Of a stretch of DNA of 28,161 bases, positions 11,057-26,730 are shown piece after piece. Source of the DNA: a virus (Duplodnaviria; Heunggongvirae; Uroviricota; Caudoviricetes). Location: the IMG/VR virus record IMGVR_UViG_2579778529_000004, positions 1 through 28,161 of that record; one strand, given 5' to 3'. A program made the translations under genes and the position numbers. The notes below the pieces were generated by a model. It was not told the DNA's origin. It did not search any database and was given only the letters and a program-made list of their open reading frames with translations. Within the stretch, counting starts at the first letter, position 1, and the number at the start of each line of letters is the position of its first letter.

Positions 11057-11071
11057 TTTGGTAAGAATATT
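11057..11071. other. Attachment-site junction (insert/helper terminase C-fragment side)
   Basis: Plus TTTGGTAAGAATATT; 12/15 identity to 25702-25716 with TTGGTAA core identical; terminase homology begins exactly here. Confidence 0.5.
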
Positions 11072-11139
11072 TCAAGTTTTTTAAAATCACCTGTATATCA
11101 ATCGTTTAACATGAAAAAACAGTCTTTATAAATCATCAA

Positions 11140-11160
11140 GCAATACACAGCGCAATACAC
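11140..11160. repeat. 21-bp terminal repeat GCAATACACAG(C/T)GCAATACAC, candidate integrase arm-type site
   Basis: 20/21 identical to 25552-25572 in direct orientation; itself a tandem duplication of GCAATACAC; 76 bp inside the insert end. Confidence 0.55.
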
Positions 11161-11345
11161 GTATCTGTATTGTTTTAATGCTGATACACACCGTTTTTTG
11201 ATACAGTGATTCGACCTACCATCGCGAAGAATTTTTTATTTCTTGTGTGTAACAATCTGACGAGGTGAGCACTCAAAGAGATAAGAGGCAGTAGAAATTT
11301 CGATCCCCCCTGAATGCAATTTTTCGTATATATATACAAAACAGC

Positions 11346-11499
11346 GCGGGTTATGCGGGTTAGCGGGTTATCTTCGCGTGCTAAGCATTTTTTACTCTTT
11401 AATATCAATAAGTTAAAAAAACAACGTATTTAAATATCAGCCAGAATATAACCCGCAAGACATTCAAAATAACCCGCAAACACCCCTCAAATAACCCGC
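11346..11499. repeat. Iteron cluster (crr-like): 3 tandem GCGGGTTA plus 3 TAACCCGC spaced about 21 bp
   Basis: GCGGGTTA at 11346, 11355, 11363; inverse copies at 11449, 11470, 11492; same 8-mer as the cluster at 19186-19308; flanked by AT-rich DNA. Confidence 0.6.
11416..11437. repeat. 22-bp conserved motif GTAT(T/G)TAAA(T/C)ATCAGCCAGAAT (copy 1)
   Basis: 20/22 identical to 17772-17793; both noncoding. Confidence 0.5.
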
Positions 11500-11580
11500 A
11501 AAAACATCCCTGAAAGTGGGCGCTGGTAATACTGAAAATTTATTCCATTAAATGAGCATTGTCCTCTCTCATCCATTCCG

Positions 11581-23766: not shown

Positions 23767-24045
23767 TTACTTATTGGCGTTTTTGTATGGGCTGTTTACT
23801 TCCTTTACTCCTGGCGGATGCATAACCCACCAGAGCACATCAGAGAGCAACCAGGAAACAGACACTTTCCCTAAATGAGCACGAGCAGGAAATGCTCCCT
23901 CCTGTTCAAGTACCCAACGTCTGCTTCTTGAAAGCCCGGTACGATTGGCACACTCATGTTCGCGTATACGGCGATCATACGGTTCGCCATGCTCTTTCAG
24001 AATCTGAATGCGTTCTTCGGGTGTAGGATAAATAAATTTTTGCAT
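23767..24045 (-). CDS. AlpA-family HTH regulator / excisionase-like (copy 2)
   Basis: Start ATG 24045 with AGGTGA upstream; ...ECANRTGLSRSRRWVLEQEGAFPA...VSVSWLLSDVLWW matches the AlpA HTH pattern. Confidence 0.6.
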   Translation of the reverse strand: MQKFIYPTPEERIQILKEHGEPYDRRIREHECANRTGLSRSRRWVLEQEGAFPARAHLGKVSVSWLLSDVLWWVMHPPGVKEVNSPYKNANK

Positions 24046-24108
24046 AAAAATATCACCTATAAAAAAACCCGCCAAAAGACGGGTTGATTATATCTCATTT
24101 AATTTAGC

Positions 24109-24336
24109 TCAGGGTTTCCATTCACCCTTTACCCATTCCAGCACCTCAGATAAGCGCCAGACTTTTGTTTGTGGGCCAATACATATTTTTCGTGGAAATT
24201 TTCCTTCCTTTTCAAGTAACGATCTGTGTCTCCTGCCAAGAGCAGTTAACCATGCACATTCATCTTCCTTAATCATCCTGTCGATTGTTTTATCATTTTC
24301 AAGTTCTTCACGCGTAACTATTTGAATCATTACCAT
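24109..24336 (-). CDS. alpA: AlpA-family HTH regulator / excisionase-like (copy 1)
   Basis: ...ECAWLTALGRRHRSLLEKEGKFP...VWRLSEVLEWV matches AlpA; directly downstream of the integrase, overlapping its stop; start could be 24330, 24336 or 24342. Confidence 0.6.
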   Translation of the reverse strand: MVMIQIVTREELENDKTIDRMIKEDECAWLTALGRRHRSLLEKEGKFPRKICIGPQTKVWRLSEVLEWVKGEWKP

Positions 24337-25531
24337 CACCACTAATTAGCTTATTCAGGTAGTCGTACCACCAGTTCATAGCTTCTTTTTTTCTGTCCAT
24401 ATACTGGCTTCTGTTATAAACCCCGGCAACACCGCCTAATGTGTGCCCAAGCAACTGTTCAACCACATTATGTTCAAAACCATGATCACTTAGCTTTGTG
24501 GCAAACACTCTTCGCATATCATGCGCCGTCCATTTCTCCGAGTGTTTCATCCTTTTCCATGTCTTACCGATAGTTACGCTTGCCGTACACTGACGCATAT
24601 CAAACCCAATCACATTTTCTTTGTTACCTGTTATTTTTTTTAACGTAACTAACCAGTTAAACATGCCATCAGGAATCGGTCTGATTATTTCCCTGCCATT
24701 TTTGCTATGATCAGCGGGAACGCGCCATAATTTCTTATCAAAATCCCACTCTCCCCAGGAGGACAGTAATACTTCTGACAGTCGGCAACCAAAAACTACC
24801 AGGAAACGTAAAATAATTCGGTTTTCATATGATAATTCGTGATTGTCATAATCAGTATTAATACTTCGCCATAAATCTCTGATTTCATCATCTGTTAAAA
24901 CCCTGCTTCTTCGCGCAGACTTTTTTCCCACATCACAGACCTCAAGATCATCAATTTCATGACTAATCGCGTATTTTCTTACCCGACAAAATTTAAGCGC
25001 CTGTTTTGATATACGCAATAAAGCTCCGGCCTGTACAGGTGCTACTTTTTTTATTTTGTCAAAGCACTTGATCCACATAGATATTGAGCAATCACTAAGT
25101 GGTACATGACCAATCACCGGATAAATATGTTTACCAAAGCACTGCCTGATATGTTCTGCTCCCCTACGCTTATCCATTGCATAATTATCAAGCCAGTATT
25201 CAAGCGCCTCACGAACGGTAACAGGTTGCAAGGTGGCTTCCCGTTCAATTTTTATCTGAATCCGTGGATCTCTGCCCTCCGCAAGCCAGGTTCGACACTG
25301 ATCGCGCATCTCTCTCGCTGATTTGAGACTCAGATCAGGATATTTTCCAAGTGTCAGCCAGATGGGCGCGGTTCCCCTTCCCGCCAGTCTGTAAAAGAAA
25401 ACAAAACTAACACATCCGTATTTACTGACCCGTACCGAAAGCCCGTTACCATCAGCGATGGTTTCCTGCCTCTCACTCCTGCGCCCAAGCAGGGAACGAA
25501 GTTTTTTATCGCTCAGTTTGTTTAGCGCCAT
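24308..25531 (-). CDS. int: Tyrosine integrase, P4-like
   Basis: About 407 aa from ATG 25531 (MALNKLSDKKLRSLLG...) with an N-terminal arm-binding-type region and C-terminal catalytic domain; located at the insert end next to the att junction. Confidence 0.85.
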   Translation of the reverse strand: MALNKLSDKKLRSLLGRRSERQETIADGNGLSVRVSKYGCVSFVFFYRLAGRGTAPIWLTLGKYPDLSLKSAREMRDQCRTWLAEGRDPRIQIKIEREATLQPVTVREALEYWLDNYAMDKRRGAEHIRQCFGKHIYPVIGHVPLSDCSISMWIKCFDKIKKVAPVQAGALLRISKQALKFCRVRKYAISHEIDDLEVCDVGKKSARRSRVLTDDEIRDLWRSINTDYDNHELSYENRIILRFLVVFGCRLSEVLLSSWGEWDFDKKLWRVPADHSKNGREIIRPIPDGMFNWLVTLKKITGNKENVIGFDMRQCTASVTIGKTWKRMKHSEKWTAHDMRRVFATKLSDHGFEHNVVEQLLGHTLGGVAGVYNRSQYMDRKKEAMNWWYDYLNKLISGDGNDSNSYA

Positions 25532-25536
25532 GTGAT

Positions 25537-26730
25537 TTATAACCCGTTTTTGCAATACACAGTGCAATACACAAATGATGAAAACAGCCAGAACCTTCCA
25601 GAAAAAACAAAAACGACGAACAAGAAAAAATCTTTTTCTTTCATTTGGTTACTAAAAAAATCAGGACAGGCCGCACTGTTGTTACGGCGTGATGTTACGT
25701 TCTTGGTAAAAAAATTCACCCGCGCAGAGACCTGTTCTTTCGCTTTTTTCGCCAGGCGACGCAGATCATCCCAGCGTTTACAGATGCCCAGGCCGGGATT
25801 CGCTTTCTGCCAGACCGTTTCATCAAACGGATCATCTCCCTCATCGAGGGTGTAAATAATCGCAAAGTAGGAGTCGTCTTTTACCGCGCCCTCCACGTCG
25901 CTGTTATAGCCACGCAATACCTTGATGGCGTAATCACGCTGCTCGTAACAAATCCCTTCCTTGTTAAACCCTGCCGTGGTGATACCAAATAAAAGGGACT
26001 GCAGACGGGCACCGGTTGCCGTTTCCAGAACGTCCCACACGTCACGGGTTTTATGTGCATGCAGCTCATCAATAATGGCGCAGTGGATGTTCAGACCATC
26101 CAGGTTGTTTGCATCCGAAGAAAGCGGTTCAAATTTTGATGCGCTCTGCTCCTGGTAAATCGCCAGCTTGTTGAAATCAAACAACCGCCCGAGTGTCGAC
26201 CGGGCTTTTCTGACCATATTTTTGGCGTCTTCAAACACGATTCTGGCCTGGTCACGCGTAGTTGCGGCTGAATACACCTCAGCACCGCCTTCACCATCTG
26301 CCCCCGTCATATACAGACCGATACCCGATGACAGGGTTGATTTTGCGTTTTTACGGGCGACTTCGTTGTACGCCGTCCGGAACCGGCGCACCATCACCGG
26401 ACGTCCGCTGCCATCGCTGCGCATGACAACTTCCCCGGTCTCTTCATTGACCAGCGGAATGACAAAACCAAAAATATTAATGAGGATAAATACATGCCAG
26501 TCCATCAACTCAATAGGCTGGCCTGCCAGCGCCCCTTTTACATGAGGCACAAATTTGTAGAAATTCAGGATGTGCTGCGCACGGGGTTCACTGAAATAAA
26601 TCCCCCGCTCTTCGCCGTACTTCAGATCATCAAGAAAACGCTGGCAGGCCAGACGGACAAATTCGCCAGCGACAATTTCTCCTGCAACAACACGTTCGGC
26701 GTAGCGGATCCCGTCAGCCACTTTTGCCAT
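25537..26730 (-). CDS. terL: Large terminase, N-terminal (ATPase) fragment of the interrupted gene, with a 51-codon insert-derived read-through tail
   Basis: The first ~346 aa align with the insert's terminase N-terminal two-thirds (FVPHVKGA, ARKNAKST, DQARIVFEDA, IIDELH motifs); homology stops at 25698 and the frame reads into insert DNA until a stop at 25537. Confidence 0.8.
   Translation of the reverse strand: MAKVADGIRYAERVVAGEIVAGEFVRLACQRFLDDLKYGEERGIYFSEPRAQHILNFYKFVPHVKGALAGQPIELMDWHVFILINIFGFVIPLVNEETGEVVMRSDGSGRPVMVRRFRTAYNEVARKNAKSTLSSGIGLYMTGADGEGGAEVYSAATTRDQARIVFEDAKNMVRKARSTLGRLFDFNKLAIYQEQSASKFEPLSSDANNLDGLNIHCAIIDELHAHKTRDVWDVLETATGARLQSLLFGITTAGFNKEGICYEQRDYAIKVLRGYNSDVEGAVKDDSYFAIIYTLDEGDDPFDETVWQKANPGLGICKRWDDLRRLAKKAKEQVSARVNFFTKNVTSRRNNSAACPDFFSNQMKEKDFFLFVVFVFSGRFWLFSSFVYCTVYCKNGL
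25552..25572. repeat. 21-bp terminal repeat GCAATACACAGTGCAATACAC, candidate integrase arm-type site
   Basis: 20/21 identical to 11140-11160, same orientation; just upstream of the integrase start. Confidence 0.55.
25702..25716. other. Attachment-site junction (helper terminase N-fragment/insert side)
   Basis: Plus CTTGGTAAAAAAATT; terminase-like translation ends at ...ARVNFFTK here and continues as 51 codons of non-terminase sequence. Confidence 0.5.

What the first reader, a model, noticed from the sequence alone, without database searches (positions are those of the whole stretch)
11057..25716. Insert has the architecture of a capsid-forming satellite (head and packaging genes, no tail or lysis genes)
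Gene order on the minus strand is int, alpA, alpA, bro, switch, small ORFs, primase, ori, ssb, FinO-like, then capsid, protease, portal, gp6 connector, HNH, terS, terL. There are no tail, tape measure or lysis genes. This fits satellites that build their own capsids and borrow helper tails (cf-PICI-like), here combined with P4-like replication features. Every head gene has a homologue in the flanking prophage, so the two could compete for or exchange components.
Basis: partly seen in the sequence, partly recalled or inferred. Interest (0 to 1): 0.75.

Follow-up and report, generated by a model that had tools for sequence, protein, structure and literature searches.

The report
Capsid-forming satellite embedded in helper terminase gene

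Summary
No tail, tape-measure or lysis gene lies inside the insert. The true limits are 11065-25709 (14,645 bp), flanked by a 7-bp direct repeat (TTGGTAA on the + strand).

Removing the insert restores a clean 585-aa TerL ORF. The restored sequence is contiguous in 906 of 5426 complete E. coli genomes, so this is a precise integrase-mediated insertion into the prophage's terL.

The packaging and replication genes are close homologues of Sakai Sp7, which I take to be the O157 counterpart of the prototype cf-PICI EcCIEDL933. TerL is 93% identical, TerS 88%, HNH 84%, portal 81%, primase 83% and capsid 63%. The integrase is only 42% identical.

The element is also already catalogued. The published attL and attR of the helper-embedded PICI Eco1645.15.A_Terminase_1_246 (Tommasini et al. 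2023) occur exactly in the window. The length, the core and the doubled TGTATTGC arm motif also match.

Three departures from the prototype:
- There is no head-completion ("adaptor") gene.
- A ProQ/FinO-like gene sits in the accessory slot.
- The iteron origin is split into two clusters.

Verdict: interpretation supported, kind already known, modest interest.

The parts
11058..11064 (.). att core copy (TTGGTAA; ttaccaa on the gene strand), attR side
   Evidence: Direct repeat at both junctions. Identical to the published att identity block 'ttaccaa'.
25703..25709 (.). att core copy, attL side next to int
   Evidence: The published attL of Eco1645.15.A_Terminase_1_246 is found exactly at 25604-25766.
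11140..11160 (-). Doubled arm motif GTGTATTGCGCTGTGTATTGC, about 80 bp from the core
   Evidence: Repeat family D13 and motif positions. Matches the HE-PICI-specific motif tgTGTATTGCantgTGTATTGCa at 81 +/- 2 bp.
25552..25572 (-). Second copy of the doubled arm motif, about 133 bp from the core, just upstream of int
   Evidence: Matches the published 132 +/- 2 bp position.
24308..25531 (-). Tyrosine integrase with an Arm-DNA-bind_3 domain
   Evidence: Pfam Phage_integrase E = 4.7e-19 and Arm-DNA-bind_3 E = 1.1e-17. Only 42% identical to the Sp7 integrase.
24109..24330 (-). AlpA-family regulator/excisionase 1
   Evidence: Pfam Phage_AlpA E = 1.9e-9.
23767..24045 (-). AlpA-family regulator 2
   Evidence: Pfam Phage_AlpA E = 7.2e-10.
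23131..23709 (-). Bro-N protein (anti-repressor family)
   Evidence: Pfam Bro-N E = 5.6e-20. PHROG 2593 E = 1.7e-85.
22218..23130 (.). Regulatory region: Icd-like gene (22218-22421, minus strand), divergent YlcI/YnfO gene (22621-22800, + strand) and a small + strand ORF (22843-23037)
   Evidence: NCBIfam phage_ICD_like E = 1.1e-18 and YlcI_YnfO_N E = 7.2e-19. PHROG hits. No Rfam RNA found.
21452..22225 (-). Three small ORFs, including DUF4222
   Evidence: Pfam DUF4222 E = 3.4e-18. PHROGs of unknown function.
19332..21455 (-). Primase/helicase (DUF927), 83% identical to the Sp7 primase
   Evidence: Pfam DUF927 E = 5.8e-46; tblastn.
19186..19308 (.). Iteron cluster A: six TAACCCGC copies in inverted groups around an AT-rich spacer; putative origin
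   Evidence: (14 copies in the window against 0.75 expected).
18696..19121 (-). Single-strand DNA-binding protein
   Evidence: Pfam SSB E = 7.9e-16.
17878..18659 (-). Accessory slot: ProQ/FinO-domain protein (18117-18659) and a conserved 82-aa ORF
   Evidence: Pfam ProQ E = 9.2e-25. The slot holds PchE in Sp7 and PerC in E. coli 042.
16434..17603 (-). HK97-fold major capsid protein
   Evidence: Pfam Phage_capsid E = 7.5e-72. 63% identical to Sp7 and 37% to the helper capsid.
15819..16379 (-). Prohead serine protease (S78)
   Evidence: Pfam Peptidase_S78 E = 5.3e-46.
14603..15817 (-). Portal protein
   Evidence: Pfam Phage_portal E = 4.6e-93. 81% identical to Sp7.
14311..14610 (-). gp6-type head-tail connector. 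It follows the portal directly, with no head-completion gene between them
   Evidence: NCBIfam TIGR01560 E = 1.1e-19. Absence of an HCP gene.
13871..14311 (-). HNH endonuclease of the packaging module
   Evidence: Pfam HNH E = 8.8e-10. 84% identical to Sp7.
13226..13579 (-). Small terminase (P27 / Terminase_4 family)
   Evidence: Pfam Terminase_4 E = 4.2e-23. 88% identical to Sp7.
11581..13242 (-). The satellite's own large terminase
   Evidence: Pfam TerL_ATPase and TerL_nuclease. 92.6% identical to Sp7 TerL and 31% to the helper TerL.
11346..11499 (.). Iteron cluster B: three plus three inverted TAACCCGC copies around an AT-rich spacer, at the terL-distal end
   Evidence: Homologous to the Sp7 origin region downstream of its primase.
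25710..26730 (-). N-terminal part of the interrupted helper terL
   Evidence: Joined to 10328-11064 it gives a 585-aa ORF. The joined sequence is contiguous in 906 genomes.
10328..11057 (-). C-terminal part of the interrupted helper terL
   Evidence: RefSeq annotates it as an incomplete pseudogene in EC416 and in E. coli 042.
6144..6482 (-). Helper prophage head-completion protein (Phage_HCP), the function the satellite lacks
   Evidence: Pfam Phage_HCP E = 1.7e-20. 49% identical to the Sp7 HCP.
631..5701 (-). Helper tail genes within the window: tail completion, Ig-domain tail tube, chaperones and tape measure
   Evidence: Intact ORFs. Pfam for the tail-completion protein gp17. RefSeq names in EC416.

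Best explanation
The insert is a capsid-forming phage-inducible chromosomal island (cf-PICI) of the EcCIEDL933/Sp7 lineage. It carries a helper-embedded-type integrase and lies in the large-terminase gene of a lambdoid E. coli prophage with an HK97-like head. It has the same orientation as that prophage's late operon.

Shown here:
- The insertion is precise and reversible in sequence terms.
- The gene set is complete for replication, prohead assembly and cos/HNH-type packaging.
- The gene set lacks tail, lysis and head-completion genes.

Inferred from published work on relatives:
1. In the lysogen the split terL leaves the helper unable to package its own DNA.
2. On induction, the helper's late transcription reads from terS and the terL N-part into int and alpA. 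The whole composite is replicated.
3. Integrase plus AlpA excise the satellite at TTACCAA, which restores the helper's terL.
4. The satellite replicates from its iteron origin(s) using its own primase and SSB.
5. It builds small HK97-fold capsids and packages its own 14.6-kb genome with its own HNH, TerS and TerL.
6. It completes particles with the helper's tails, and probably with the helper's head-completion protein.
For: Gene content.

Homology to Sp7: TerL 92.6%, TerS 88%, HNH 84%, portal 81%, primase 83%, capsid 63%. The gene order is the same.

Precise insertion: deleting 11065-25709 gives an uninterrupted 585-aa TerL. The restored 1200-bp site is contiguous in 906 of 5426 genomes, up to 100% identical. 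It is also contiguous in deposited phages such as vB_EcoM-606R7 (99.2%) and phi467.

Spread: the element is present in 32 genomes. In E. coli 042 it sits in a helper with a non-homologous head module.

Match to the catalogued element: the published attL and attR of an A:Terminase_1:246 HE-PICI are found exactly in the window. The 14,645-bp length, the ttaccaa core and the doubled arm motif at about 80 and about 133 bp also match.

Published behaviour of relatives:
- EcCIEDL933 makes its own small capsids and needs only helper tails.
- Sp7 excises, replicates and is packaged in Sakai.
- The HE-PICI 11capE excises after the composite has replicated.
Against: Nothing about this particular element has been tested experimentally. 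The only HE-PICI studied by induction (11capE) is of a different type and gave no detectable particles.

The element lacks the Phage_HCP adaptor. In other cf-PICIs that protein is essential and helps set tail specificity. Particle completion may therefore fail or need a specific helper.

The equivalence of Sakai Sp7 and EcCIEDL933 is my inference from the shared O157:H7 background, the 15.4-kb size and the gene content. I did not check it against the EDL933 sequence.

The helper cannot be judged for overall viability from this window. In strain EC416 its cro/cI-family gene is annotated as frameshifted.
Confidence: 0.85

Rival explanations
1. It is a decayed or rearranged prophage fragment nested in another prophage by recombination, and is no longer mobile.
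For: It contains only phage-like genes. One relative carries an IS1414 insertion. Sp7 was originally described as a highly degraded prophage.
Against: All ORFs are intact. The junctions are a 7-bp direct repeat with integrase arm motifs. Excision in silico restores a gene that is intact in 906 genomes. The element occurs in different helper backgrounds, and the literature reports it at an off-target chromosomal site. About 80 loci in other species share the same compact architecture.
Confidence: 0.04
2. The island's head and terminase genes are a captured 'backup' set that functionally replaces the interrupted helper gene. The idea comes from Tommasini et al. On this reading the two modules are interchangeable.
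For: Every island head gene has a helper homologue of the same family. The HE-PICI paper proposes late-gene capture that provides backup copies.
Against: Identity to the helper proteins is only 19-41%, with no nucleotide similarity. The genes are 63-93% identical to a chromosomally integrated cf-PICI. They therefore belong to an old satellite lineage and are not a recent capture. In the EcCIEDL933/HK106 pair, phage and island packaging mutants did not complement each other.
Confidence: 0.05
3. The surrounding prophage is only a landing pad. The real tail donors are other phages, possibly from other species, that meet released tail-less capsids outside the cell.
For: He et al. showed that cf-PICIs release tail-less capsids which then acquire tails from unrelated phages. 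None of the 17 prophages of strain EDL933 appeared to act as a helper for EcCIEDL933.
Against: The attB lies only in this terL family. The orientation matches the helper's late operon. The island lacks the head-completion gene that the surrounding prophage supplies. These three points argue for dependence on the local prophage. The two models are not exclusive.
Confidence: 0.06

Closest known systems
EcCIEDL933 / Sakai prophage Sp7, the prototype capsid-forming PICI (Alqurainy et al., bioRxiv 10.1101/2022.09.08.507074; Asadulghani et al. 2009, PMC2669165)
   Same: Same gene order from int to terL. TerL 93%, TerS 88%, HNH 84%, portal 81%, primase 83%, SSB 68%, capsid and protease 63% identical. 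Similar size (14.6 against 15.5 kb). No tail or lysis genes.
   Different: - The integrase is only 42% identical.
- The attachment site differs: Sp7 lies between roxA and phoQ in the chromosome, whereas this element lies inside a prophage terL.
- There is no Phage_HCP adaptor gene (Sp7 has ECs_1593).
- It has two AlpA genes and a Bro-N gene.
- ProQ/FinO replaces PchE in the accessory slot.
- The iteron origin is split into two distant clusters.
Helper-embedded PICIs, site group A:Terminase_1:246 (Tommasini, Mageeney & Williams 2023, PMC10111431)
   Same: The attL and attR flanks are exactly those of Eco1645.15.A_Terminase_1_246. The 14,645-bp length and ttaccaa core are identical. The doubled TGTATTGC motif is at the published spacing. 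The element is co-oriented with the helper late gene and has the Integration/Bro/Replication/Late zone order.
   Different: None at the level of the element: it is the catalogued genotype. That paper does not use the terms cf-PICI or capsid-forming and does not describe this group as such. Its induction experiments used a different, capsid-gene-embedded island (11capE).
Classical E. coli PICIs (EcCICFT073, EcCIED1a)
   Same: An int-alpA-primase left half and AlpA-dependent induction by a helper.
   Different: Classical PICIs have no complete head or terminase module. They are packaged into helper-made capsids.
Satellite phage P4
   Same: P4-like integrase, Vis/AlpA and alpha-like primase. Two separated iteron regions recall P4 ori and crr; that comparison rests on my own knowledge and was not tested.
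   Different: No ORF matched a P4 capsid-size (Sid), decoration (Psu) or transactivator (Delta) family in the scans run here. No CI/C4-type RNA was detected. The island carries its own capsid and terminase genes, which P4 lacks.

Membership tests
cf-PICI (capsid-forming PICI) | Integrase at one end, followed by an AlpA-type regulator | tested here: met
   Pfam Phage_integrase plus Arm-DNA-bind_3, and two Phage_AlpA genes.
cf-PICI (capsid-forming PICI) | Own primase/replicase and origin | tested here: met
   DUF927 primase 83% identical to that of Sp7. Iteron clusters.
cf-PICI (capsid-forming PICI) | Own major capsid, prohead protease and portal | tested here: met
   Pfam Phage_capsid, Peptidase_S78 and Phage_portal.
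cf-PICI (capsid-forming PICI) | Own HNH, small terminase and large terminase | tested here: met
   Pfam HNH, Terminase_4, TerL_ATPase and TerL_nuclease.
cf-PICI (capsid-forming PICI) | Head-tail connector (gp6 type) | tested here: met
   TIGR01560 E = 1.1e-19. 57% identical to Sp7 ECs_1594.
cf-PICI (capsid-forming PICI) | Head-tail adaptor (Phage_HCP, PF05521, as in EcCIEDL933/Sp7 ECs_1593) | tested here: not met
   The portal stop (14603) abuts the connector start (14610). tblastn of the Sp7 HCP hits only the helper gene at 6159-6482. This gives 10 of the 11 SatelliteFinder core components, which I map to that tool's 'Type B'. About 10 of roughly 55 relatives in other species also lack it.
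cf-PICI (capsid-forming PICI) | No tail or lysis genes; size about 10-18 kb | tested here: met
   All ORFs are accounted for. Length 14,645 bp.
cf-PICI (capsid-forming PICI) | Produces its own small capsids and depends on helper tails | not testable with these tools
   Needs induction, electron microscopy and transduction assays. Shown only for EcCIEDL933 and a few other islands.
Helper-embedded PICI (HE-PICI) | Integrated within a prophage late gene, interrupting it, and co-oriented with it | tested here: met
   The terL halves at 10328-11064 and 25710-26730 join into one 585-aa ORF. All genes lie on the minus strand.
Helper-embedded PICI (HE-PICI) | Short att identity block, with an intact attB in other genomes | tested here: met
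   TTGGTAA repeat. The site is contiguous in 906 genomes and in deposited phages.
Helper-embedded PICI (HE-PICI) | Doubled TGTATTGC motif about 81 bp to one side and about 132 bp to the other side of the attP centre | tested here: met
   Copies at 11140-11160 and 25552-25572 against the published description.
Helper-embedded PICI (HE-PICI) | Integrase belongs to the 11capE integrase clade | not tested
   No integrase phylogeny was run. Membership follows indirectly from exact identity of both att flanks with a published member of the A:Terminase_1:246 subclade.
P4-like satellites | Sid, Psu and Delta hijacking genes and a CI-type immunity RNA | tested here: not met
   No such families among the Pfam, PHROG or NCBIfam hits of any ORF. 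No Rfam hit at E <= 0.1.

The most novel reading that the evidence does not exclude
This helper-embedded cf-PICI lineage has handed head completion to its host prophage. It lost the Phage_HCP adaptor and uses the helper's copy. Its position in terL would then be a cis-acting control: until the island excises, the helper can make tails and neck proteins but cannot package DNA. That would turn the 'commensal' cf-PICI lifestyle into one that gates helper reproduction. The link between the cf-PICI and HE-PICI literatures, and the split ori/crr-like iteron origin, do not appear in the papers I could search.
Probability: 0.35. Interest if true: 0.45.

Novelty: already known. Interest (0 to 1): 0.3.

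Why it matters
The window holds both partners of a satellite-helper pair, physically nested. A tail-less, capsid-forming island sits inside the one helper gene it can replace for its own use.

For annotation, this means a prophage that looks broken (split terL, duplicated head module) is in fact a two-part composite.

For biology, it is a natural test case for two questions:
- Does embedding let a cf-PICI throttle its helper?
- Can head-completion proteins be borrowed across 30-40%-identical head systems?

The element class and the integration site are both published, so the value is confirmatory and integrative. It is not a discovery.

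Tried and rejected
- Rfam scan of the insert for P4/P1-type immunity RNAs (C4, isrK), which Tommasini et al. report in some Bro zones: no hit at E <= 0.1.
- Search for embedded relatives in other species. I took 80 loci from species-representative genomes using the portal as query. None had helper-type terL fragments or helper tail genes in the flanks.
- The one locus with a similar integrase (Xenorhabdus L044, 71%). On its downstream side it is followed by an HTH-domain gene and then ABC-transporter and HlyD-type genes, not prophage late genes; its upstream flank was not retrieved.
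- The hypothesis that loss of the HCP adaptor is specific to embedded islands. Rejected: about 10 islands from other species, none flanked by this terL type, also lack it.
- The 318-aa ORF at 22218-23174. Treated as spurious. It runs antisense to the YlcI/YnfO gene and fuses to the Icd-like frame. Its similarity to Sp7 ECs_1576 probably reflects nucleotide conservation of the regulatory region.
- The attB table of the cf-PICI paper (Table S2). It could not be read: no supplements are held and the journal version is not in the library. I cannot say whether that paper already lists a prophage terL site.
- Megablast of the element against deposited phages. It found only about 25% coverage at 76% identity, to a 16.5-kb 'induced prophage' record (vB_KppS-Ant) that is probably itself a cf-PICI.

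Full report
**What is in the window**

All substantial genes lie on the minus strand. The outer sequence is the late region of a lambdoid prophage with an HK97-type head. It contains:
- HNH 27361-27747 and TerS 26730-27212
- a TerL N-terminal part ending near 25710, and a TerL C-terminal part at 10328-11057
- portal 8893-10134, protease 8265-8951 and capsid 7045-8250
- connector, head-completion, gp10-like and gp17-like genes at 5357-6796
- tail tube 4592-5296, chaperones, and tape measure 631-3864

The finding's region lies between the two TerL parts.

**Check of the observation**

- integrase
- two AlpA genes
- Bro-N
- a divergent regulatory region (Icd-like gene on the minus strand, YlcI/YnfO on the plus strand)
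- small ORFs, including DUF4222
- a DUF927 primase/helicase
- iterons
- SSB
- a ProQ/FinO-domain protein
- capsid, S78 protease and portal
- gp6-type connector (TIGR01560, E = 1e-19)
- HNH, TerS and TerL

No ORF matches a tail, tape-measure, holin or endolysin family.

Each head or packaging protein has a same-family homologue in the surrounding prophage. Identity is only 19-41%, and there is no nucleotide similarity.

**Boundaries and nature of the insertion**

TTGGTAA occurs at 11058-11064 and again at 25703-25709. Deleting 11065-25709 (14,645 bp) joins the two TerL parts into an uninterrupted 585-aa ORF that reads …[18 protein letters not shown]….

A 1200-bp reconstruction of this empty site gave the following results:
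- It is contiguous in 906 of 5426 complete E. coli genomes, up to 100% identical. About 29 genomes match it only as separate halves.
- It is contiguous in deposited E. coli phages such as vB_EcoM-606R7 (99.2%), phi467, Evi and PhiR49_2.

The element covers at least 80% of its length in 32 genomes. The best match is strain EC416 (Japan, pig), where an IS1414 has additionally landed in the regulatory region.

In E. coli 042 the same element sits at the same terL position. There the helper's connector-capsid-protease-portal block (window 6494-10385) has no nucleotide homologue, and a PerC-family gene replaces ProQ/FinO. The island is therefore a discrete unit found in more than one helper background.

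**Relation to cf-PICIs**

I retrieved prophage Sp7 of E. coli O157:H7 Sakai (15,461 bp, between roxA and phoQ). From its size, O157:H7 background and gene content, I take it to be the counterpart of EcCIEDL933, the prototype cf-PICI (15.4 kb). This equivalence is an inference. I did not check it against the EDL933 sequence.

The gene order is the same. Protein identities to the insert are:

| Protein | Identity to Sp7 |
|---|---|
| TerL | 92.6% |
| TerS | 88% |
| HNH | 84% |
| primase | 83% |
| portal | 81% |
| SSB | 68% |
| capsid | 63% |
| protease | 63% |
| connector | 57% |
| integrase | 42% |

The capsid/packaging and replication modules thus belong to the EcCIEDL933 lineage, and the integration module is different.

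A scan of species-representative genomes with the portal as query returned 80 loci across Enterobacterales and Gilliamella. The roughly 55 long enough to analyse share the same compact portal-to-terL module. This agrees with the published wide distribution of cf-PICIs.

**Relation to helper-embedded PICIs**

[quoted passage not shown] They found 14 sites, among them one called A:Terminase_1:246. Their table lists Eco1645.15.A_Terminase_1_246 at 14,645 bp with att identity 'ttaccaa'.

Four features of the window match that entry:
- The published 163-nt attL of that element is found exactly at 25604-25766, and the 154-nt attR at 10963-11116.
- The length is identical at 14,645 bp.
- The core is identical.
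- The HE-PICI-specific doubled motif tgTGTATTGCantgTGTATTGCa, reported 81 +/- 2 bp to one side and 132 +/- 2 bp to the other side of the attP centre, is present at 11140-11160 and 25552-25572. Those positions are about 80 and about 133 bp from the core.

The island is therefore the catalogued genotype. That paper never uses 'cf-PICI' or 'capsid-forming'. I found no paper in the searchable library that links the two concepts. I could not read the attB table of the cf-PICI paper.

**Differences from the prototype**

1. *No head-completion gene.* Sp7 has a Phage_HCP (PF05521) gene, annotated 'head-tail adaptor', between its portal and connector. In the insert the portal stop and connector start abut. 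The Sp7 HCP finds only the helper's gene at 6144-6482, at 49% identity.
   - In other cf-PICIs the adaptor and connector are essential and set tail specificity.
   - Loss of HCP is not unique to embedded islands. About 10 of roughly 55 relatives in other species also lack it.
   - The helper's HCP is 61-63% identical to the HCPs of several cf-PICIs in other genera. The island's portal and TerL are only about 31-33% identical to their helper counterparts. This fits with exchange of neck proteins between satellites and helpers.
2. *Different accessory gene.* The slot between SSB and the capsid gene holds a ProQ/FinO-domain protein. In Sp7 it holds PchE, and in E. coli 042 a PerC-family gene.
3. 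*Split iteron origin.* The octamer TAACCCGC occurs 14 times in the window against 0.75 expected. Twelve copies lie in two clusters, at 19186-19308 and 11346-11499. Each cluster is an inverted arrangement around an AT-rich spacer. In Sp7 the homologous clusters lie side by side downstream of the primase.

**Mechanism**

Shown here:
- The insertion is precise and sequence-reversible.
- The modules for replication, prohead assembly and packaging are intact.
- Tail, lysis and head-completion genes are absent.
- The helper late region in the window is intact apart from terL.

Inferred from relatives:
- The split terL blocks helper packaging.
- After induction, late transcription and composite replication pass through the co-oriented island.
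- Integrase and AlpA excise the island and restore terL.
- The island replicates and builds its own small capsids. EcCIEDL933 builds capsids of 240 subunits, which I read as T = 4.
- It packages itself with its own HNH, TerS and TerL. It then takes the helper's tails, and probably the helper's HCP.
- Sp7 in Sakai excises, replicates and is packaged.

The island's own terL reads TCACCAA at the equivalent codons, 6 of 7 matches to the core, in otherwise different flanks. No TTACCAA occurs on the island's gene strand, so self-targeting is unlikely.

**Rivals**

- *Decayed prophage fragment.* Contradicted by the intact ORFs, the att architecture, the abundant empty sites and the multiple helper backgrounds.
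- *Backup copy.* The 'backup copy' idea of Tommasini et al. is unlikely here. The island's genes are far closer to a chromosomal cf-PICI than to the helper. At similar divergence, EcCIEDL933 and HK106 did not cross-complement.
- *Foreign tails.* Acquisition of tails outside the cell from other phages may well also occur. It does not explain the site specificity or the missing HCP.

**Verdict**

The kind of element (cf-PICI) and its embedded location (HE-PICI, A:Terminase_1:246) are both published, and this exact genotype is in a published supplement.

What this analysis adds is the explicit link between the two descriptions, the missing adaptor, and the split iteron origin. Interest is modest.

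Noticed in passing
window 19186-19308 and 11346-11499: There are two separate clusters of the octamer TAACCCGC: 12 of the 14 copies in the window, against 0.75 expected by chance. Each cluster is an inverted arrangement around an AT-rich spacer, and the two lie 7.7 kb apart. In Sakai Sp7 the homologous clusters are adjacent downstream of the primase. The split recalls the P4 ori/crr pair.
   Followed up: partly
window 18117-18659: A ProQ/FinO-domain protein (Pfam E = 9e-25) occupies the accessory slot between SSB and the capsid gene. The same slot holds PchE in Sp7 and a PerC-family regulator in the E. coli 042 copy. An RNA-chaperone-type gene in a phage satellite has no obvious role.
   Followed up: no
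window 6144-6482: The helper's head-completion protein is 61-63% identical to the HCPs of cf-PICIs in Enterobacter, Kluyvera, Kosakonia, Phytobacter and Rahnella. The island's portal and TerL are only about 31-33% identical to their helper counterparts. This suggests neck-protein exchange between helpers and satellites.
   Followed up: partly
window about 22953-22963 (L001 26905-28216): Strain EC416 carries an IS1414 (IS256-like) insertion in the island's regulatory region between the Bro-N and YlcI genes. The window's own sequence lacks it. Otherwise the two sequences are 99.6-99.97% identical.
   Followed up: partly
window 6494-10385 versus L003: The helper's connector-capsid-protease-portal block has no nucleotide homologue in the E. 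coli 042 helper. The terL and tail genes on either side are 97-98% identical. This is mosaic replacement of the helper head module around a conserved terL target.
   Followed up: partly
window 22218-23174: A 318-aa minus-strand ORF spans the regulatory region. It fuses in frame to the Icd-like gene and is 50% identical over 133 aa to Sp7 ECs_1576. Its odd, Cys-rich composition and its antisense overlap with YlcI/YnfO suggest that both it and ECs_1576 are not real genes.
   Followed up: partly
window 4592-5296: The helper's tail-tube protein carries a C-terminal immunoglobulin-like domain, according to the RefSeq name in EC416.
   Followed up: no
phage record LR881103.1 (vB_KppS-Ant, 16.5 kb, 'induced prophage'): This is the only deposited 'phage' with notable similarity to the island (25% coverage, 76% identity, over the portal and capsid genes). 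Its size suggests it is itself a cf-PICI deposited as a phage.
   Followed up: no
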